From Rhizonema sp. PD37 (GTDB taxonomy: Bacteria > Cyanobacteriota > Cyanobacteriia > Cyanobacteriales > Nostocaceae): 64,000 nt of DNA. Location of the stretch: NCBI GenBank assembly GCA_029379215.1, contig JAQYWO010000014.1, positions 416-64,415 of the forward strand, written 5' to 3'. Both the position numbers and the translations under genes were made by a program. The notes under the pieces were generated by a model. It saw nothing but the letters and a program-made list of their open reading frames with translations. It had not been told where the DNA came from and made no database searches. Positions 1,323-9,783 of this stretch are shown piece by piece. Position 1 is the first letter of the stretch. Each line of letters starts with the position of its first letter.

Positions 1323-4259
1323 CTACCGAACTTTGAATTGCCCGACACTTTCCTGCAATAATTGAGCCACTTGGCGCAATTGCTCAAACGACTCGGTGAC
1401 GTGATTTGCTTCTGCGGAAGTTTGATTGGCGATCAAGGCAATATTGTGCATAGTTTGGGTGACGATCTCGGAGGTTTGGGATTGAGAAATCGTTGCTTGA
1501 GAGATCGTAGTCACTAGTTGACTAATTTCAGAACTGACTGCTGTGATTTTATTCAAGCTTCGGCGAGTGACATCTATTAAATTCGTTCCCGTCACAACCT
1601 GCTCTGTTCCTGATTCTATCGCTGCAACTATCTCCCTGGTTTGTGCTTGAATGTTGAACACCAAGTGTCTGATTTCTTCTGTCGCTTCTGCGGATTGTCG
1701 TGCTAGGATGCGCACTTCATCGGCAATGATTGAAAAACCTCTTCCTTGCGATCCTACTCGCGATGCCTCCACCGAAGCATTGATTGCCAGAGTGTTGGTT
1801 CGAGTAGCAAAAGCATCAATTAAGTCAACGGCTTTAGAAATTTTTTGTGAAGACTCTCCAAGATATTTCACCTTCTTAGCTGTATCCGCAACAGTTAACC
1901 GGATTGCATGCATTCCATCCACTGTTTGGTTCATGACAGCATCTCCTTCTGCCACAGTTCGATCTGCTTCTTTCACTGCTTCTTCGGCGCGTACAGCATT
2001 GGCAGCAACTTCTCTTGCCTTGTTCGCCATTGCTGTCACCAGTGTTAAGGCAGTGCTGATTTCCTCTGCTTGCACTAATGCCTCTGTTGATAAAGATTGC
2101 ACTGAAATATCATTTGTGCTGGTTATCACAACAACTTGCGCGGTTGCTTTCTGCACCTGAAGCACAATTTTCCATAAGCTAGCTACAGTAGTATTGTAGA
2201 CATCCGCGAGCGTGCCAATTTCATCATCCGTCACCTTCGCCCAGATCGTCAAATCTCCTTGATTGATGGGGTCTACTTCTGCAAGCAGTTGTAATGCCCG
2301 TTTTTGCAGTCTTTCTTTAAGTTGACGCTGCTCTTCTGCTAGACGGAGCGTTCTCTCTAGCAATTCTACTCGATTGATCAAAAGCCCAAGCTCATGACCT
2401 AAGCGCTTGAGGAAATCGATCTCAGACTTGTGCCAATCGCGGGGACTAGAGCAGCTGTGAGCGATCAACAACCCGAAAAGTTCACCGCCACCAAGAATAG
2501 GAACGATCAAACTTGCTTTGACTTGTAATTGTTCAAGCAACTTGAGATGTTCGAGATGAAACCCTGCCAGGAAAATGTCATCTTCGACTAAAACTCGACC
2601 TTGTTGGTAGGCGTCACGAACTACTTGAGGAATGCAGGAATCATTGACATTAAGTTCAAGGGTACTTGGCAAGCCTGCCGCAACCGATTCTGAGATAACG
2701 CCTCCACTCGATTCTGCATTAAAGCGATAAATCACAAGCCGATCAAGTTGCAGGAGATTCCGGGTTCCCTCAAGAGTCCAATCAAAAATATCTTGAAGAT
2801 CCTGTGTCCGTATTGCCCCAGCCCCTTTTGCTGTCGTCAGCAACCGCTCTTGTTCTGCTTCAAACGCTTGTGCCTCTAAAAATTCCTGCAACTGTTCTGC
2901 CATCTGGTTGATGTTGCTTCCCAATGAAGCAATTTCATCTCTTCCCTGAAAGGATAGGCGAGTTCCCAACGCTCCTTGACCAATTTTTTCAACCGCTCTT
3001 ACCGCAGCTACAATTGGGCGAGTTGCTCGGTTCGCAAGAACTGCGGCGATCGCAGCTACCAATAAAGTGGTGATACTAGTTCCAACTGAGAGGATGAGCA
3101 GGTATTGTCGTTGCGTAGCGAAAGCAATGTCTGTATCGATAGAAACAATCGCCCGCCAATCAAGATAAGGCAACCCTCGAAGCGGCACAGGAGGACTGTA
3201 AATGAGCAGTTGCTCGGTCTTAGTTATTGAATTGTAGAAGATAGCAGTGCTGATTTCATGAACTGCCATAAGATGCTTAAAGAAAGGATAAATCTCTTCA
3301 GCAACAATTTTTTTGTATTCCTTTGGGCTATCCGTTGCTTCTGTATTTGAAGGCTCAAATGTGATCTCTCTTGTAGCTTCAGTAGAGCCTTTCGGACCCA
3401 GAAAAACTTCGTTATCAGCATTCATCAGGTAATACTGTGTCCCTTGAGTCCCATAATTTCGGAGTACCTCATCCAGAAATGCTATTGGAACACGCGCACG
3501 GATGAAACCAATAGGTCGATCTGTTTCTTTATCTTTGATAACGGAAGCGGAATAAAAACAAAAAACCTTTGAGCTTTCTGAAAGCTCTGGCTGGCTGATA
3601 CTCGTCGTTTCGTCATTGTTTAAAGCGGCTTGAATATAATTTTGGTCGAGCTGGTTGCCAAGTGCGGCTCCTGTAGTTTGAGCGACTACATTCCCCTGTA
3701 AATCAAAAATCGCAATGCTATCATAGATGCCATAGATATTCATTAAGCGCGTCAGAACTGCCACCTTATCTCGCTCTGTCGTGTGCGATCGCAACTCACG
3801 TTTGGTAAACACATCTAGGCTCGCCATAACCTGGATATTACTCAAGCATTGACGCATAAACAGGTTCGCTGTCTGTTGTAAGTCAACTACCCTCGCTTTG
3901 CCAAAAGCTTCCACTTGCTTGGTAATCGAGCGATTGGCAAAGTAATAGCCAGTTATCCCAATTGCCAACACTGGAATTGTACTCATCACAACTGCAACAG
4001 AGGTGACTTTTGCTCTCACATTAACGCCTTTCCACCAGCGAACTATCTTACCTTTAAGAGGCGTCTGTAAGTTGTCAGTTATCGGCTTGGTTCCGTCTAA
4101 CAGGAGCCGATGAGAAGTGAGACGAGATTGTAGAGGCTTTCTCAAATGAGGCGCTACAGCATCTACACAAGTTGCATGCATTGAATCAGTACTCTGCTCT
4201 TGAGCAGATTTGGAGGGTTGGTGTTCACTAGAATGAGACTTGAATGGCTTTTGAACCAT
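1323..4259 (-). CDS. methyl-accepting chemotaxis protein: TM, periplasmic sensor, TM, HAMP, cyanobacteriochrome-type GAF, MCP signalling domain
   Basis: C-terminal MCP signature (TNTLAINASVEASRVG..GRGFSIIADEVRILA). GAF block LDRLVIYRF...GGVISESV...QVKASLIVPI. Two hydrophobic segments. Start moved to MVQKPF (ATG 4259-4257); the upstream extension to 4451 looks non-coding. Confidence 0.9.
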   Translation of the reverse strand: MVQKPFKSHSSEHQPSKSAQEQSTDSMHATCVDAVAPHLRKPLQSRLTSHRLLLDGTKPITDNLQTPLKGKIVRWWKGVNVRAKVTSVAVVMSTIPVLAIGITGYYFANRSITKQVEAFGKARVVDLQQTANLFMRQCLSNIQVMASLDVFTKRELRSHTTERDKVAVLTRLMNIYGIYDSIAIFDLQGNVVAQTTGAALGNQLDQNYIQAALNNDETTSISQPELSESSKVFCFYSASVIKDKETDRPIGFIRARVPIAFLDEVLRNYGTQGTQYYLMNADNEVFLGPKGSTEATREITFEPSNTEATDSPKEYKKIVAEEIYPFFKHLMAVHEISTAIFYNSITKTEQLLIYSPPVPLRGLPYLDWRAIVSIDTDIAFATQRQYLLILSVGTSITTLLVAAIAAVLANRATRPIVAAVRAVEKIGQGALGTRLSFQGRDEIASLGSNINQMAEQLQEFLEAQAFEAEQERLLTTAKGAGAIRTQDLQDIFDWTLEGTRNLLQLDRLVIYRFNAESSGGVISESVAAGLPSTLELNVNDSCIPQVVRDAYQQGRVLVEDDIFLAGFHLEHLKLLEQLQVKASLIVPILGGGELFGLLIAHSCSSPRDWHKSEIDFLKRLGHELGLLINRVELLERTLRLAEEQRQLKERLQKRALQLLAEVDPINQGDLTIWAKVTDDEIGTLADVYNTTVASLWKIVLQVQKATAQVVVITSTNDISVQSLSTEALVQAEEISTALTLVTAMANKAREVAANAVRAEEAVKEADRTVAEGDAVMNQTVDGMHAIRLTVADTAKKVKYLGESSQKISKAVDLIDAFATRTNTLAINASVEASRVGSQGRGFSIIADEVRILARQSAEATEEIRHLVFNIQAQTREIVAAIESGTEQVVTGTNLIDVTRRSLNKITAVSSEISQLVTTISQATISQSQTSEIVTQTMHNIALIANQTSAEANHVTESFEQLRQVAQLLQESVGQFKVR

Positions 4260-4697: not shown

Positions 4698-6026
4698 TCA
4701 AAAACCATAAGAGTAACCGTCTCTTTGATGAATAGATGAACAATATTTGTAACTAATTCCCGCCACTCTACCTTTTGGAGTAGAAATATCAAAACTACCA
4801 GTTGCACGGCACAAAACTCTACCAACATAAGTACCACCCTTTTTCCCTTTGGTGACAACAGCCTTGATGATGTCGCCAGTCTGGAAGCCAAAATGGATTT
4901 GTTGATGAGTGCGATAACGCTGTGGAAAACCATACTTATTAGTAGCGCACATTTGACGTTTCCCGTGCCCATTCGCTGTAATTAGCAGTGGTTTTATGCC
5001 TTTGATCATGAGAGTAGGAGTAGATTTACCTACACAAGCCGCATCAATCCAATGAGTTTTTTCCAGGTTTTGGGTAGTCCGATGAAACTTGGTTAACCCC
5101 GACGACCCTGTTTCTACAGGTAATCCAGTTGCCTTAAGCATTTCTAAGAGCTTAAATCTGGTTGCATTAACAGCCGCAGTATCAGCCAACGGTTTCTGAG
5201 CTTGCTGAGAAATCTTCTTCAACCTTTGTGGGTCTTTTTTTAGAAAATCTCTAATATCCATAGTCCCTTTTTTGATGTTGCAGTTCTCACAACTTAAAGT
5301 CAGATTAGCCAGCCGATTAGAACCTCCTTTCGCTCTTGGATGAATGTGTTCAATTTGCAAGGGAATCTCTTTCAGTCCGCAGTAAGCACATTGTCTCCCC
5401 CATTTCTCCAACAAATACTCGCGAGTTTCGTATCCTGCAAGAGTTCCCTGTTGGTATTCTTTTCCCTGGATTTTAGGGTTCTGCATTAATTGGGTGTCAA
5501 ACCTGACTAATTCTTGAGATATGGCAGTAATAGGGGCAAACTTGCACAACCTCTTAACCCACGTTTCAATATTATGAACACGACTCATCAAGCTTGGTGC
5601 TAACCACCCATCTCTACGTTGTTGAGGACATGGTTGCTTATTTCCCTTCCTAAACCATTCGTGTTTTGGCGGCTGTCGGTAACGGGTTTTGCGATTTCTT
5701 CGAGTTCGACGTAGTTGACGCCGTGATGTTAGAGAATCTCTGATAGCAAAACCGCGATGTTGCAGTTCTGCCGCCCATACAACTTCTCCACTGGCATCAT
5801 TAACAACAGCAATACCAGTTGTTCTTGAACCTGGGTCAATCTTAATTCTTAATGGTTCTACAACAGCATCTGGTTTTGACTCGACGAGGATAATTGTGAA
5901 CGGAAATTTGCGAAAGATTACGGCTTTTTTGTTTCTCAACAGTTGCCGCGCTTGGGCTGGATGAATTGGATTTTGGGGTCTTTTTTTGGTGTCGATTACT
6001 AGTGCTTTGCTCATAAGAGCCTCCAT
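4698..6026 (-). CDS. iscB: IscB RNA-guided endonuclease (PLMP-like N-terminus, split RuvC, RRXRR bridge helix, HNH, C-terminal beta-barrel)
   Basis: NPIHPAQARQLL..FPFTIIL (PLMP-like). IKIDPGSRTTGIAVV (RuvC-I). RRQLRRTRRNRKTRYR (Arg-rich helix). CAYCG...IEHIHPRAKGGSNRLANLTLSCENCNIKK (HNH). HWIDAACVG (RuvC-III). About 440 aa. All catalytic positions appear intact. The start may be the MSKALV Met at 6014. Confidence 0.85.
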   Translation of the reverse strand: MEALMSKALVIDTKKRPQNPIHPAQARQLLRNKKAVIFRKFPFTIILVESKPDAVVEPLRIKIDPGSRTTGIAVVNDASGEVVWAAELQHRGFAIRDSLTSRRQLRRTRRNRKTRYRQPPKHEWFRKGNKQPCPQQRRDGWLAPSLMSRVHNIETWVKRLCKFAPITAISQELVRFDTQLMQNPKIQGKEYQQGTLAGYETREYLLEKWGRQCAYCGLKEIPLQIEHIHPRAKGGSNRLANLTLSCENCNIKKGTMDIRDFLKKDPQRLKKISQQAQKPLADTAAVNATRFKLLEMLKATGLPVETGSSGLTKFHRTTQNLEKTHWIDAACVGKSTPTLMIKGIKPLLITANGHGKRQMCATNKYGFPQRYRTHQQIHFGFQTGDIIKAVVTKGKKGGTYVGRVLCRATGSFDISTPKGRVAGISYKYCSSIHQRDGYSYGF

Positions 6027-6370
6027 TACTGGGTAAAGTTTGCCTCGCTAATGTTATTGGTCGGTACTTTCCAAGCAGCACGGATTTAACTCTCTAATCT
6101 TTTTAACTACTCGGTTCTAGGGTTCATGGACTGGCACGCATCCAGAAGTAGGAATTTTAACACTTGCCAATAACGTAGTACTCGGGGTACTTAAGCTGGT
6201 CAACTATGCTTAAAGTCGTAAACATGAGCGCGAGGCTAGATGCTCCGTGTCTTTAGACCGGAGTCGTTGACACGATTAGACTAGAGTCTCCAACCATCCC
6301 TGATAAAGATAAATATTAAGATGCTTCTTTCAGATCTTGAGCGCTATAAAGATCTGTAGGCTCTAAGATG
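6027..6370 (-). ncRNA. candidate omega-RNA of IscB (scaffold immediately 5' of the iscB ORF; 5' end/guide position unknown)
   Basis: About 300 nt of non-coding, GC-balanced sequence sits directly upstream of iscB on the same strand. No credible ORF. In OMEGA systems the omega-RNA is encoded here. Assigned by position only. Confidence 0.4.
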
Positions 6371-6832: not shown

Positions 6833-7090
6833 GGCAGAAAGCAGAAGGTTTGAAGTACTAATAAAAACTTTAGTTCTGGAGCCAGTGCGTTGCGCGGGTT
6901 CCCCGCGTTGAAGCATCTGGCGTGGTATAAAGCCCAGTAAAAAAAAAGAATTGTATCGAGACGCGTAGCGCGAGATACAAAGCGTCCAAGCTATGATCCC
7001 ACGTTTTTAAACGTGGGATCATAGCTGCCCTCTGCCTTCTCCTTCGGAGACGCTGCGCGAACGTACTTCTGCCTTCTGAATGCGATCGCA
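6833..7090. repeat. cluster of small dispersed palindromic repeats
   Basis: Perfect 17-bp-stem palindrome GCTATGATCCCACGTTT/AAACGTGGGATCATAGC (about 6990-7026). The unit cagtgcgttgcgcgggttccccgcgttgaagca (about 6883-6915) recurs inverted at about 58160-58192. The 73-aa ORF here is not credible. Confidence 0.6.
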
Positions 7091-7195: not shown

Positions 7196-8722
7196 TCAAA
7201 TGTCTCCACTTGCAATCATCTGTATCATTTGCGGTACTCCAGGATCGAAGCCTGCAATATCGTAGGATAAAGGGTCTTTTGGATCTACCAGTGTGATTTG
7301 GTAAGGTGCAAGGGTGACATAAACTGCCTTGACTTCTGGATTCACCTTTTTGCGATACTCCGCCAGCGCTTGAGTTGGATGCTTGTAACCTGCCCAGCTT
7401 TCAGAGTCAGTCCAGCAGCAAACGACATCTGCTTTGAACTTGTTCTTAATCATCCAGTCATAAGTCACAGACGCATCTGTGCCGCCGAAGTTTTGATTGC
7501 TGGCTTTGCGAACCGCTGAATTAAAACTATCTTTGGCTGTGATTCCCAAGTCGCGGAATTCAGTACTAAACCCGCGAATCATGTAATTCTTCTCTGCTTT
7601 TGCTGTCACCAATGCCATTGTTGTGGCAATTTCACAACAGCTTAGTCCCATATCCGCAACTAAGGTACCCATAGAACCAGAAACATCTACGGCGTGCATA
7701 AAGACTTTGCCTGTAGGTTGGACGACATCAAAAGATAATTCAACCGCCTTTTCTAAGATGTCTACAATTCGGTTAACTGGATTCCAAGTTTTTTTACTGC
7801 GTCCTAAACTTCCACCTGATTGATAAGTCTTAAGGGCTTTTAAGACATTAATAGGGTGGATACGACCTTTACGCAGATGTTCTTTGTTATTAAGAACTGC
7901 TTCTACCCGCAGTAAATTGTCGCTTTCATCAGTTCGCAAAACACCCAGTTCAGTCAGCGAACCTAAGTTCCTGAGCAATGCACCAATTGGCATTTCTTGG
8001 AACAGCAACTGCCAAGCAGATTTGTCCATCTTGCCTATAGGTGCTGCCATTTCGTGAGTTAGGCGTCCTTGGGCAATGGCTTCTTGTGTCCGATCTGGAT
8101 TGCGTTTCAGCCACTCATACCACCAAATCTGTACCAAGGCCGTAGAAGGGATTTCTGATGGTAAGACAACCCATCCTTTAACAACCCATTCAAACAATTG
8201 TTGGTGTTCTACGGTTGGTGGTTTGATATGGAACAAACGCAAGGCGTCGCGACTGGAAAAGTTATGGCGTTGCTGGTACTTCAGCAACTGGTAAGCCAAA
8301 CCCTTAACGTCTTCTCGTAAAAACCAGTTTTTCCCTGCTTCGCGTACAACTTTACCAAATCCGCGCATGGACTTGGTGTAGCTCAACCACTCGTAAAAAT
8401 GGCTACCCGTGCGAATGACTTTGGGGAAGATTTCCGCAAATGCCTTTTTGGCTTCTGGTGCTTCACCCATCGACAGCAAGACTAACGCCAGGATCGGCGC
8501 ACTGTTATTAATGGCACGTCCATCGCTAGCATACAGGATTTCATCGGCTACAAGTTGGGGATTTTCGGCGATCGCCTGTCTGACAACCATGACAAAATCC
8601 TCAGTTAACTCCTGCTTTCCTGCATAGTAAGTGCTTTGTGCCGTGCCAATCAGCAAACAGCGTCGCAGCATTTGCCTTCTCCCAGCATCAAACATCCAAC
8701 CGCCAGAACGTCCCTGGATCAT
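7196..8722 (-). CDS. rsr: Ro60-related protein Rsr (TROVE domain + vWA domain)
   Basis: 508 aa. TROVE-like N-terminal part. C-terminal vWA with MIDAS motif (HAVDVSGSM...GGTD). tRNA-like RNAs lie directly upstream, as at other bacterial rsr loci. Confidence 0.85.
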   Translation of the reverse strand: MIQGRSGGWMFDAGRRQMLRRCLLIGTAQSTYYAGKQELTEDFVMVVRQAIAENPQLVADEILYASDGRAINNSAPILALVLLSMGEAPEAKKAFAEIFPKVIRTGSHFYEWLSYTKSMRGFGKVVREAGKNWFLREDVKGLAYQLLKYQQRHNFSSRDALRLFHIKPPTVEHQQLFEWVVKGWVVLPSEIPSTALVQIWWYEWLKRNPDRTQEAIAQGRLTHEMAAPIGKMDKSAWQLLFQEMPIGALLRNLGSLTELGVLRTDESDNLLRVEAVLNNKEHLRKGRIHPINVLKALKTYQSGGSLGRSKKTWNPVNRIVDILEKAVELSFDVVQPTGKVFMHAVDVSGSMGTLVADMGLSCCEIATTMALVTAKAEKNYMIRGFSTEFRDLGITAKDSFNSAVRKASNQNFGGTDASVTYDWMIKNKFKADVVCCWTDSESWAGYKHPTQALAEYRKKVNPEVKAVYVTLAPYQITLVDPKDPLSYDIAGFDPGVPQMIQMIASGDI

Positions 8723-8834
8723 TTCTGCTTCCCGTCCAGGAATTGGCTGAGTCTGTGGAGTCTCTGTCTTTTTTTGTGTAAATAACTTGTAGTTTATTGT
8801 ATTATCTCCCAGCCTTTACAGGCAAAAATCGAAG

Positions 8835-8959
8835 GTGGCGGAGCAGGACTCGAACCTGCGACATCCGGCTTGGAAGGCGATAACCCTAATTCTTCGGCCT
8901 TTACAGGCAAGGGATGAACAAGGATGTTTTCGGCGTTCTATCCACTGAACTATCCGCCA
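8835..8959 (-). ncRNA. tRNA-like RNA 1 (candidate Y RNA, YrlA-like)
   Basis: On the minus strand: acceptor TGGCGGA/TCCGCCA (7 bp perfect), D arm GTTC-AGTGGATA-GAAC, T arm GCAGG-TTCGAGT-CCTGC. About 70 nt occupy the anticodon-arm position, including GCCU-GUAA-AGGC. No encoded CCA. Confidence 0.55.
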
Positions 8960-9104
8960 CATAATTAAAGCGCGGAGTAGGGGCAGGTGAAGAGCGATTA
9001 ATCTTGGATATGATAAGCTATTTGATTAAATCTGCCCGTACAGGAGGCGCGGAGTGGAAATAAAATTCCTCACTCTTAACCTTTCACTCATCACTGAAAT
9101 TGGT

Positions 9105-9205
9105 GTAGTGGGGCGGGGTTTGAACCCGCGACCTCTCGTTCCAGCGATAACCCTCATTCTTCGGCCTTCTCAGGCAAGGGGTGAAAAAGGAAGAGTGTCC
9201 CACCA
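9105..9205 (-). ncRNA. tRNA-like RNA 2 (candidate Y RNA; no D arm)
   Basis: Acceptor-like TGGTGGG/CCCACTA (one G-U). T arm GCGGG-TTCAAAC-CCCGC. Shares the module CCCUUGCCUG-(GNRA)-AGGCCGAAGAAU.AGGGUUAUCGC with RNA 1. The D arm is replaced by the stem CTCTTCC/GGAA(C)GAG. Confidence 0.5.
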
Positions 9206-9311
9206 CATAATTTAGATTAATGTATTATTGGATACTCTATTACAGGAATTTTTCGTAATTTAGATAGTATTTTTGCATTTAAAAAAATCTCAGTAAAAAC
9301 GCTCATTTGGT

Positions 9312-9429
9312 ATAGCGGGGCAGGAATTGAACCTGCATCTCCGGCGAATCAAGGGGGGAGATCGTTAAAAGCGATAATCGGCCCTTCCTTTGCAAAATTA
9401 GCGCTCTAGCAATTGAGCTACCTGCCACA
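9312..9429 (-). ncRNA. tRNA-like RNA 3 (candidate Y RNA)
   Basis: D arm GCTC-AATTGCTA-GAGC. T arm GCAGG-TTCAATT-CCTGC. Imperfect acceptor (TGGCAGG/CCCGCTA). About 60-nt insert containing GCGATAAUCGGCC. The same 5' flank TTATGTGG occurs in all three units. Confidence 0.45.
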
Positions 9430-9783
9430 TAACAATTCAAAGTTCAAAGTTCGCTCGGCGAATCTACTACAAGTGAACTTGGTTTTGTAATATTAATGTA
9501 GTATACGGATTGCTCAATGTCAAGTGGTTGCAAAAATAAAATTAGCTGTGAGACAGATCGTTAAAATAGTCAGAATTTTTCCCACTGCGCCACTTGCCGG
9601 ACTCGGGGGGGATTTCCGCAAGGCAGTGGCGACCTTATTCACTACTATAGACACGCTTTGAGACAGACCCAGACTAAAATACTTTTGTCAGTTTGCCGGA
9701 AAAATTTTCGGCAAGAAAACAAATGATACAAACAAGTGTGCAAATTTTTGCCAAGATAATATTATTATTTTCCAACAAACCAC

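What the first reader, a model, noticed from the sequence alone, without database searches (positions are those of the whole stretch)
7196..9432. rsr (Ro60 orthologue) preceded by three tandem tRNA-like RNA genes
Directly upstream of rsr, on the same strand, lie three units of about 100-125 nt spaced about 100-150 nt apart. Each has a textbook T arm (GxxGG-TTCRAxY-CCxxC) and an acceptor-type closing helix. Two also have a D arm. In all three the anticodon arm is replaced by a 60-70-nt insert, so they cannot decode. Bacterial Y RNAs of the YrlA class are encoded next to rsr and mimic tRNA, so these are strong Y RNA candidates. Three tandem paralogues is noteworthy. All three share the 5' flank TTATGTGG, preceded by an A/T-rich -10-like hexamer (TTTAAT, TAAATT, TGTTAT), which suggests separate promoters. 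One caveat: here the RNA ends sit in the acceptor-like helix (normal tRNA topology). My recollection is that in described YrlA RNAs the ends lie in the Ro-binding stem, so the architecture may differ from the described class.
Basis: partly seen in the sequence, partly recalled or inferred. Interest (0 to 1): 0.6.

Follow-up and report, generated by a model that had tools for sequence, protein, structure and literature searches.

The report
tRNA-shaped Y RNAs upstream of rsr
Three small RNA genes in front of this cyanobacterium's Ro60 (rsr) gene are built like ordinary tRNAs whose anticodon arm is replaced by a Ro60-binding hairpin, the reverse wiring of the bacterial Y RNAs described so far, and this bears on how Y RNAs arose from tRNAs.

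Summary
Three tRNA-like units lie upstream on the same strand: A 9428-9308, B 9206-9101, C 8960-8835.

A covariance model built from 93 related units scores them 47, 78 and 140 bits. Nothing else in the 9.1-Mb genome scores above ordinary tRNAs, so this is not a dispersed repeat.

Across 80 Nostocales rsr loci, and in other cyanobacterial orders, the fold is supported by covariation. It has an 8-bp acceptor stem closed within each unit, a D arm and a T arm. A GNRA-capped bulged hairpin carrying GCCGAAG, the published Rsr-binding motif, sits where the anticodon arm would be.

This is the circular permutation of published YrlA. Rfam's YrlA model does not detect it.

One conserved promoter precedes the whole array, so separate promoters are not supported.

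Distal units carry G3:U70, A73 and an encoded CCA, the alanine identity marks. A look-alike hairpin abuts the rsr ribosome-binding site.

In this genome only unit C is intact, and the rsr start codon reads ATA.

The scan has found this RNA class before on other genomes. I found no published description.

The parts
7196..8797 (-). The rsr (Ro60 orthologue) coding region. The first ATG is at 8722-8720. The conserved start position is 8797-8795 and reads ATA here.
   Evidence: Pfam TROVE and vWA_Ro60 hits. PDB 2NVO and 1YVP alignments begin at residues 13-14 of the extended frame, upstream of the first ATG. The frame is open from 8797. All 53 other leaders aligned have ATG, GTG or TTG at this position.
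8805..8825 (-). The rsr leader element: UU (8825-8824), hairpin GCCU-GUAA-AGGC (8823-8812), U (8811), then the Shine-Dalgarno sequence GGGAGA (8810-8805). It looks like the Rsr-binding hairpin of the Y RNAs.
   Evidence: 54 distinct leaders are 98.5% paired. The closing pair varies CG 37 / UA 13 / UG 4. The element is kept in other cyanobacterial orders and in L009, which lacks the array.
8835..8960 (-). Unit C, the proximal and intact tRNA-shaped Y RNA. Acceptor strands 8960-8953 and 8842-8835. D arm 8950-8935. Ro hairpin CUUGCCU-GUAA-AGGCCGAAG 8911-8892. AGGGUUAUCG 8887-8878. T arm 8859-8843. No encoded CCA.
   Evidence: Model R1 scores it 139.8 bits, E = 8e-29.
9101..9206 (-). Unit B. It has an 8-bp acceptor stem (GUGGUGGG / CCCACUAC) with G.U at the third pair, an intact Ro hairpin and T arm, and an encoded ACCA (9104-9101). 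The D arm is missing.
   Evidence: R1 scores it 77.9 bits, with the 16 model positions of the D arm deleted. Its orthologue L010:1988-2110 has the D arm and scores 129 bits.
9308..9428 (-). Unit A, the distal unit, of class c1. It has an acceptor stem, D arm, T arm and an encoded ACCA (9311-9308). Its Ro module is shortened: GGGCCGA is kept but the partner strand is truncated.
   Evidence: Rfam tRNA model 37 bits. R1 47 bits. Compared with c1 orthologues L010:1799, L014:1684 and L013:1661.
9495..9523 (-). The conserved sigma-70-type promoter of the array: TTGACA (9523-9518), 17-nt spacer, TACATT (9500-9495). It lies about 60 nt upstream of unit A.
   Evidence: Consensus scan, 10 of 12 matches. 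The same TTGACA-N17-TACATT followed by AATAATACAAG precedes the array in 74 of 81 loci.

Best explanation
The units are genes for Y RNAs, the RNA partners of the Ro60 orthologue Rsr, built on an unpermuted tRNA frame.

**Shown.**
- Each unit folds as a tRNA, with an open 8-bp acceptor stem, a D arm and a T arm.
- The 2-3 bp remnant of the anticodon stem opens into a conserved module.
- That module is a long arm (AUCCU/AGGGU, RUUC/GAAU) tipped by a GNRA-capped hairpin: 5'-CUUGCCU-GNRA-AGGC(C)GAAG-3'.
- The hairpin reproduces the C-G / bulged C / G.U / A-U core and the GNCGAAN0-1G motif that published work ties to Ro60/Rsr binding.
- It is followed by an invariant GGGUUAUCG and a small hairpin.

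**Inferred.**
- The array and rsr are transcribed from one conserved promoter as a single precursor.
- RNase P and the tRNA 3'-end enzymes cut out the units.
- Rsr binds the hairpin.
- The tRNA-like body is the effector-binding part, as proposed for YrlA.
- Distal units, with G3:U70, A73 and an encoded CCA, expose a tRNA-Ala/tmRNA-like acceptor end.
- The proximal unit has no CCA and runs into the rsr leader. There a look-alike hairpin overlapping the ribosome-binding site could let Rsr repress its own translation.

In this genome only unit C is intact.
For: - **Adjacency.** Units lie on the rsr strand and upstream of it in 80 Nostocales loci and in four genomes of other families or orders, 0.1-5.6 kb away.
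- **Structure.** 93 distinct units, 37 pairs, 98.8% of cells paired. 15 pairs carry compensatory changes in 206 cells. 0 of 500 shuffles reach this, and slid controls give 16 cells or fewer.
- **Topology.** The acceptor helix is 8/8 within a unit in 177 of 189 units. Across neighbouring units it is 8/8 in only 12 of 111. Loci L020 and L024 have a single unit, so no permuted reading is possible there. The Ro helix is closed by a conserved GNRA loop.
- **Rsr motif.** GCCGAAG in B and C fits GNCGAAN0-1G (PMC4201824).
- **Shared order with a phage Ro locus.** The order GNCGAA ... GGUUAUC ... T arm also occurs upstream of the Ro gene of mycobacteriophage Myrna.
- **Not a repeat.** In the own genome only these three units exceed tRNA-level scores.
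- **One promoter.** It is present in 74 of 81 loci. Spacers are as short as 5 nt.
- **Alanine marks.** 65 of 74 distinct ACCA-ended units have G.U at the third pair, against 2 of 88 units without CCA. None of the 47 tRNA genes or the tmRNA gene here encodes CCA. G3:U70 is otherwise confined to the three tRNA-Ala genes, plus one probably misregistered tRNA-Arg.
- **Leader hairpin.**
Against:
- The Ro-core pairs (U.G, U-A, bulged C) never vary, so covariation says nothing about them.
- RUUC/GAAU shows only one-sided changes.
- In this genome A and B carry lesions.
- The closest relative, L009, has lost the array and promoter yet keeps an intact rsr. The RNAs are therefore dispensable in at least one lineage, unless that MAG contig is misassembled.
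- Units within a class are related by descent, so the G.U/CCA association is few events, not 74.
Confidence: 0.78

Rival explanations
1. The functional RNAs are ordinary permuted YrlA molecules read across unit boundaries. In this reading an RNA runs from the T arm of unit n, through a long 'acceptor' stem-loop made of the two acceptor strands and the spacer, to the D arm of unit n+1. The Ro helix would form between neighbouring units.
For: - Chen et al. 2014 reported a few cyanobacterial YrlA candidates with 'longer acceptor stems'.
- Neighbouring acceptor strands still pair 7/8 in 78 of 111 junctions.
- Rfam YrlA gives a weak hit (25.4 bits, E = 0.17) across the 8-nt junction of two units in L012.
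Against: - Within-unit pairing is better: 8/8 in 94% of units, against 11% across junctions.
- The GNRA loop closing the Ro helix is conserved.
- Spacers are unconserved heptamer repeats of 5-265 nt.
- Single-unit loci exist (L020, L024, G029).
- The first D arm and the last T arm of every array would be orphaned.
- RF02553 finds nothing at the window's locus even at E <= 10.
Confidence: 0.05
2. The units, or at least the proximal one, are not free trans-acting RNAs. They are cis elements of the rsr mRNA: a tRNA-like 5' structure that sets the mRNA 5' end through RNase P cleavage, or that stabilises or regulates the message.
For: - The proximal unit sits at a fixed distance from the rsr start: 11 nt, then the hairpin, then the Shine-Dalgarno sequence.
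- It never has an encoded CCA or a terminator.
- One promoter serves the whole array.
Against: - The Rsr-binding-type hairpin and the full tRNA elbow are conserved far beyond what a processing signal needs.
- Distal units with an encoded CCA, and units downstream of rsr, cannot be leaders.
- In G047 and G038 the units lie 0.2-5.6 kb from rsr.
Confidence: 0.09
3. The units are decaying tRNA genes, intron-containing tRNAs, or copies of a tRNA-derived mobile repeat that happen to lie next to rsr.
For: - Rfam's tRNA model scores unit A above its gathering score.
- Units A and B carry deletions.
- A MITE-like repeat sits in the B-C spacer.
Against: - There are no other copies in the 9.1-Mb genome.
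- No anticodon arm would remain after removing the insert.
- The insert is only 60-70 nt and matches no intron family.
- The insert is the most conserved part of the unit and shows covariation across orders.
Confidence: 0.02
4. The RNAs are real and tRNA-shaped, but their main partner is not Rsr. It would be another tRNA-binding enzyme, such as an RNA-repair or modification factor, as proposed for the 'b7a-tRNA' class.
For: - Wang et al. 2018 summarise a predicted tRNA-like ncRNA (b7a-tRNA) that sometimes lies next to Rsr.
- The invariant GGGUUAUCG has no assigned partner.
Against: - Every unit found is linked to rsr.
- The units carry the published Rsr motif within a bulged helix matching the Ro60 site.
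- A copy of that hairpin sits on the rsr leader.
Confidence: 0.06

Closest known systems
YrlA (Y RNA-like A; Rfam RF02553; Chen et al. 2014, PMC4201824; structure in Wang et al. 2018, bioRxiv 10.1101/312249)
   Same: - Encoded next to rsr on the same strand.
- Has a tRNA-like T arm, D arm and acceptor-type stem with the elbow nucleotides.
- Carries the GNCGAAN0-1G motif.
- The motif is followed by GGUUAUC and then the T arm, as seen upstream of the Ro gene of mycobacteriophage Myrna.
- Often occurs in several copies.
   Different: - The strand order is reversed. YrlA runs Ro strand, T arm, loop-closed acceptor stem, D arm, Ro strand, with its termini in the Ro stem.
- Here the order is acceptor, D arm, loop-closed Ro hairpin, T arm, acceptor, with the termini in the acceptor stem.
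- Both strands of the Ro helix are recognisable here.
- RF02553 does not detect the units.
Metazoan Y RNAs and D. radiodurans Yrn1
   Same: Both have a bulged Ro60-binding helix with both strands conserved. The core is C-G, bulged C, G.U, A-U, and the contacted motif GGUCCGA is cited in PMC4201824.
   Different: - In those RNAs the helix is formed by the 5' and 3' ends. Here a GNRA tetraloop caps that end.
- Here the effector module is a complete tRNA frame.
tRNA-Ala and tmRNA acceptor ends
   Same: - Distal units have G1-C72, G3.U70, G4-C69, A73 and CCA.
- The three tRNA-Ala genes and the tmRNA of this genome also have G3.U70 and A73.
   Different: - The 2:71 pair is U-A, not G-C.
- The stem is 8 bp.
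- There is no anticodon and no tag reading frame.
- CCA is encoded here, whereas none of the genome's 47 tRNA genes or its tmRNA gene encodes it.
- Charging is untested.
Autoregulatory leader mimics, such as the tRNA-like operator of E. coli thrS mRNA and ribosomal-protein operators (named from general knowledge)
   Same: A copy of the protein's RNA-binding site is placed on or next to the ribosome-binding site of its own mRNA.
   Different: This is purely inferred here. Only the conservation of the hairpin and one covarying pair are shown.
M. smegmatis YrlA after RNase P cleavage (Chen et al. 2014)
   Same: A Y RNA whose acceptor-like stem is opened and receives CCA, giving free tRNA-like ends.
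   Different: - There the ends arise by cutting a closed loop of a permuted RNA, which yields two fragments.
- Here the open acceptor stem is the native layout and CCA is encoded in the distal units.

Membership tests
Bacterial Y RNA (functional class: ncRNA partner of Rsr/Ro60) | Encoded close to rsr, on the same strand | tested here: met
   The window. 80 related loci. Other families and orders.
Bacterial Y RNA (functional class: ncRNA partner of Rsr/Ro60) | Carries the Ro60/Rsr-binding element: the GNCGAAN0-1G motif in a bulged helix | tested here: met
   GCCGAAG in units B and C, within 5'-CUUGCCU-GNRA-AGGC(C)GAAG-3'. Unit A keeps only GGGCCGA with a truncated partner strand.
Bacterial Y RNA (functional class: ncRNA partner of Rsr/Ro60) | Exists as a stable transcript that is physically bound by Rsr | not testable with these tools
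No binding data are available.
YrlA (Rfam RF02553) | Scores at or above the family covariance model's gathering score (69 bits) | tested here: not met
   No hit at the locus at E <= 10. The best hit in the whole genome is 23.3 bits, at tandem tRNA-Met genes. A 25.4-bit hit lies across a unit junction in L012.
YrlA (Rfam RF02553) | A tRNA-like domain with T and D arms and elbow nucleotides | tested here: met
   Units A and C: D loop AGU-GG-UA, T loop UUCRANY, and G15/C48-type positions. Unit B lacks the D arm.
YrlA (Rfam RF02553) | Circularly permuted order, with the T arm 5' of the D arm, a loop-closed acceptor stem, and termini in the Ro-binding stem | tested here: not met
   The order here is acceptor, D arm, Ro hairpin, T arm, acceptor. 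The acceptor stem is closed within each unit and the Ro helix is capped by a GNRA loop.
tRNA (RF00005) | A cloverleaf that includes an anticodon stem-loop able to decode | tested here: not met
   ARAGORN calls none of the units. Only a 2-3 bp remnant of the anticodon stem encloses a 60-70-nt module. RF00005 scores unit A at 37 bits and unit C at 18 bits.
tmRNA (RF00023) | A tRNA-Ala-like end together with a tag reading frame and pseudoknots | tested here: not met
   RF00023 scores unit B at 14.5 bits against a gathering score of 47. The genome's real tmRNA is on contig C67.
b7a-tRNA (Burroughs and Aravind 2016) | A tRNA-like ncRNA associated with a Band-7 protein or RtcB | not tested
   The paper is not held. 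Only the summary in Wang et al. 2018 was read. No Band-7 or rtcB gene was looked for beyond the immediate neighbours.

The most novel reading that the evidence does not exclude
The distal units (A- and B-type paralogues across Nostocales) are matured like tRNAs and charged with alanine by AlaRS. They combine G3:U70, A73 and a genomically encoded CCA, in a genome where no tRNA gene encodes CCA. That would make Ro60-bound, aminoacylated Y RNAs that link RNA quality control to the translation or tmRNA machinery. Together with the unpermuted layout, the arrays would then be the living intermediate between tRNAs and permuted YrlA RNAs, as the 'dimeric tRNA' origin model predicts.
Probability: 0.15. 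Interest if true: 0.9.

Novelty: new variant of a known kind. Interest (0 to 1): 0.62.

Why it matters
Bacterial Y RNAs are thought to derive from tRNAs. The current model derives the permuted YrlA layout from dimeric tRNA transcripts (Wang et al. 2018, citing Sim and Wolin 2018).

Tandem arrays of unpermuted, tRNA-ordered Y RNAs in front of rsr are the kind of intermediate that model needs. They are conserved across cyanobacterial orders and are invisible to the Rfam YrlA model. They would also explain why few YrlA RNAs were found in cyanobacteria.

Their open acceptor ends make three questions directly testable:
- Are Y RNAs processed by RNase P and RNase Z?
- Do they carry CCA?
- Can they be aminoacylated?

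The look-alike hairpin on the rsr ribosome-binding site suggests a simple autoregulatory circuit for a Ro60 protein.

Tried and rejected
- **RNA-seq.** No transcript ends, abundance or processing could be checked.
- **Rfam positive control.** The Ro locus of mycobacteriophage Myrna gave no Rfam match at E <= 1. RF02553 is therefore narrow, and its silence here is weak evidence on its own.
- **Papers not available.** The supplements of Chen et al. 2014, which list the cyanobacterial candidates, are not held. Burroughs and Aravind 2016 is not held. Literature searches for cyanobacterial Rsr or Y RNA found nothing specific.
- **Unit-specific promoters.** Rejected, from spacers of 5-265 nt made of heptamer repeats and the single conserved upstream promoter.
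- **Dispersed tRNA-derived repeat.** Rejected. The only repeated piece is a MITE-like element in the B-C spacer.
- **Intron-containing tRNA.** Rejected. The insert matches no intron family, is too short for a group I intron, and leaves no anticodon arm.
- **A unit downstream of rsr in the window.** None was found with the filters off.
- **MFE folding of single units.** Uninformative for unit A (z = -0.46) and only modest for B and C (z = -2.6 and -2.3). The structure rests on covariation.
Full report
**What is there**

The minus-strand ORF 7196-8722 is a Ro60 orthologue. It hits Pfam TROVE and the Ro60 vWA domain. It matches D. radiodurans Rsr (2NVO, E = 1e-73) and X. laevis Ro60 (1YVP, 3e-69).

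Three tRNA-like units lie upstream on the same strand:
- A: 9428-9312, then ACCA.
- B: 9206-9105, then ACCA.
- C: 8960-8835.

ARAGORN calls none of the units. Rfam's tRNA model scores A above threshold only by skipping a 57-nt insert.

**Comparative evidence**

I fetched 80 Nostocales rsr loci. T-arm motifs lie upstream of rsr in almost all of them, and the proximal one sits at a fixed distance.

I extracted 189 units (172 distinct) and clustered them into classes. I aligned 93 distinct units of the main class, with unit C first (A2).

I tested the RNAalifold consensus, extended by hand, with pair counts:
- 37 pairs, with 98.8% of cells paired.
- 15 pairs carry compensatory changes, in 206 cells.
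- 0 of 500 shuffles reach this, and slid controls give 16 cells or fewer.

Covariation supports these helices:
- The 8-bp acceptor helix (5:136 CG 62 / UA 31; 6:135 GC 67 / AU 23).
- The D stem.
- A 2-3 bp anticodon-stem remnant (CG 53 / UA 39).
- The tip hairpin GCCU/AGGC (CG 87 / UA 6).
- A small hairpin after UUAUCG (CG 46 / AU 33 / UA 10).
- The T stem.

The helices AUCCU/AGGGU and RUUC/GAAU, and the U.G and U-A pairs beside the bulged C, are invariant or change on one side only. Covariation is silent on them.

**Topology**

Published YrlA RNAs run Ro strand, T arm, loop-closed acceptor stem, D arm, Ro strand. They are described as resembling circularly permuted tRNAs.

Here the order is the tRNA order.
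- The acceptor strands of one unit pair 8/8 in 177 of 189 units.
- The Ro helix is closed by a conserved GNRA loop.
- Spacers are unconserved and 5-265 nt long.
- L020 and L024 have a single unit behind the promoter.

RF02553 (YrlA) finds nothing at the locus. Its only weak hit in five related loci (25.4 bits) lies across an 8-nt junction between two units in L012. That is probably what Chen et al. saw as cyanobacterial candidates with 'longer acceptor stems'.

**Why Rsr partners**

The hairpin 5'-CUUGCCU-GNRA-AGGC(C)GAAG-3' contains GCCGAAG. This fits the GNCGAAN0-1G motif that Chen et al. relate to the GGUCCGA contacted by Ro60. It forms the same core of C-G, bulged C, G.U and A-U.

Upstream of the Ro gene of mycobacteriophage Myrna the same order occurs twice: GGGCCGAACG ... 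GGUUAUCC ... T arm. So the module from motif to T arm appears to be shared with that phage Ro locus.

Opening the GNRA loop and closing the acceptor ends would convert one layout into the other.

**Specificity and spread**

The covariance model R1 scores C at 139.8 bits, B at 77.9 and A at 47. All other hits in the 9.1-Mb genome score 26-49 bits, and the five I checked are ordinary tRNAs.

In a sample of 150 cyanobacterial genomes, 12 have matches at E <= 1e-8. They include two other families of the order and two other orders. In every case rsr lies downstream on the same strand, 0.1-5.6 kb away.

**Expression model**

A TTGACA-N17-TACATT promoter followed by AATAATACAAG precedes the array in 74 of 81 loci. 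In the window it lies at 9523-9495, about 60 nt before unit A.

Some spacers are only 5-15 nt long. Together these point to one precursor that is cut by tRNA-processing enzymes, not to separate promoters. This part is inference.

**Acceptor ends**

- Of 74 distinct units followed by ACCA, 65 have G.U at the third pair.
- Of 88 units without CCA, 2 have it.
- The proximal unit never has CCA.
- In this genome none of the 47 tRNA genes or the tmRNA gene encodes CCA.
- G3:U70 is otherwise confined to the three tRNA-Ala genes, plus one probably misregistered tRNA-Arg.

Distal units therefore show the alanine identity marks. Whether they are charged is unknown. The units are related by descent, so these counts are not independent events.

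**Leader**

Between unit C and rsr lie UU, then GCCU-GUAA-AGGC, then U, then GGGAGA (8825-8805). Across 54 distinct leaders this hairpin is 98.5% paired, with one covarying pair (CG 37 / UA 13 / UG 4).

The hairpin persists in other orders. In G047 the leader reads GGGCCGAGGAG and that genome's own Y hairpin reads GGGCCGAGGAA. It also persists in L009, which lacks the array.

It resembles the Rsr site and abuts the Shine-Dalgarno sequence. Autoregulation is a reasonable but untested idea.

**State of this locus**

- Unit B lacks the D arm that its orthologue in L010 has.
- Unit A has an 11-nt shorter Ro module than its orthologues.
- The conserved rsr start codon reads ATA at 8797-8795, where 53 other leaders have ATG, GTG or TTG.
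- Homology to the Ro60 structures begins upstream of the first ATG.
- L009, the closest relative (rsr 97% identical), has lost the array and the promoter.

The system may be under relaxed selection in this lineage.

**Prior knowledge**

I found no paper that describes this layout. The scan itself has reported the same class on other cyanobacterial and phage genomes, including the alanine marks. My tests were done independently and agree with those reports.

**Limits**

- No RNA or binding data were available.
- The supplementary lists of Chen et al. 2014 and the Burroughs and Aravind paper could not be read.

Noticed in passing
window 8795-8797 (minus strand): The conserved rsr start codon reads ATA here, while all 53 other leaders aligned have ATG, GTG or TTG. 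The next ATG (8722) would remove 25 residues, about 12 of which align with the Ro60 structures. It may be a weak start, a truncation or a sequencing error.
   Followed up: partly
L009:2300-2430 (Rhizonema sp. PD38 MAG): The closest relative (rsr 97% identical) lacks the whole Y RNA array and its promoter. The gap corresponds to about window 9683-8827. It keeps the leader hairpin and an ATG start. This is either a real deletion or a MAG assembly collapse.
   Followed up: partly
window 8976-9049 (spacer between units B and C): A copy of a dispersed palindromic repeat of about 66 nt (TGTACGGGCAG ... CCTGCCCCTAC). The repeat occurs on many contigs of this genome, sometimes in tandem with a period of about 70-76 nt. 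It looks like a MITE.
   Followed up: partly
window 9495-9540 and L010-L088 at about 1500-2200: The array promoter is conserved well beyond its two hexamers (ATAATACATATAC-TACATT-AATAATACAAG, with ATAATACA repeated 20 nt apart). This suggests an operator for an unknown regulator.
   Followed up: no
L066:4074-4184, and about 40 other loci at about 4034-4216: Many Nostoc loci have a further unit 10-50 nt after the rsr stop. It has a 7-bp acceptor stem, no D arm, the Ro hairpin, GGGUUAUCG and a T arm, and is followed by a U-rich tail. The window has none.
   Followed up: partly
window 9308-9428; L010:1799-1926, L013:1661-1785, L014:1684-1807: In class c1 units (the first unit of arrays) the module is arranged differently. 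The CCCUUGAUUC strand lies 3' of AGGGUUAUCG instead of 5' of the Ro hairpin, so AGGG/CCCU encloses the UUAUCG hairpin. In Nostoc these units also have a UAAAAAU T loop.
   Followed up: partly
L066:2186-2212, L104:1606-1636, L017:1814-1958, L048:1747-1891: Some otherwise high-scoring units carry a 23-27-nt insertion inside the T loop.
   Followed up: no
window 4698-6271 (minus strand): A HEARO RNA (Rfam, 125 bits, 6033-6271) is followed by an IscB-type RRXRR/HNH protein (4698-6026). The element lies downstream of rsr, where relatives carry the extra unit.
   Followed up: no
window 6990-7030: A near-perfect palindrome (AGCTATGATCCCACGTTTTTAAACGTGGGATCATAGCT) lies about 170 nt after the rsr stop. 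It may be a terminator or a repeat element.
   Followed up: no
own genome, contig C425:4081-4739: A tight cluster of five tRNA genes (His, Gln, Phe, Arg, Tyr) with atypical 3' ends. It also attracts weak YrlA-model hits, as expected for tandem tRNAs.
   Followed up: no
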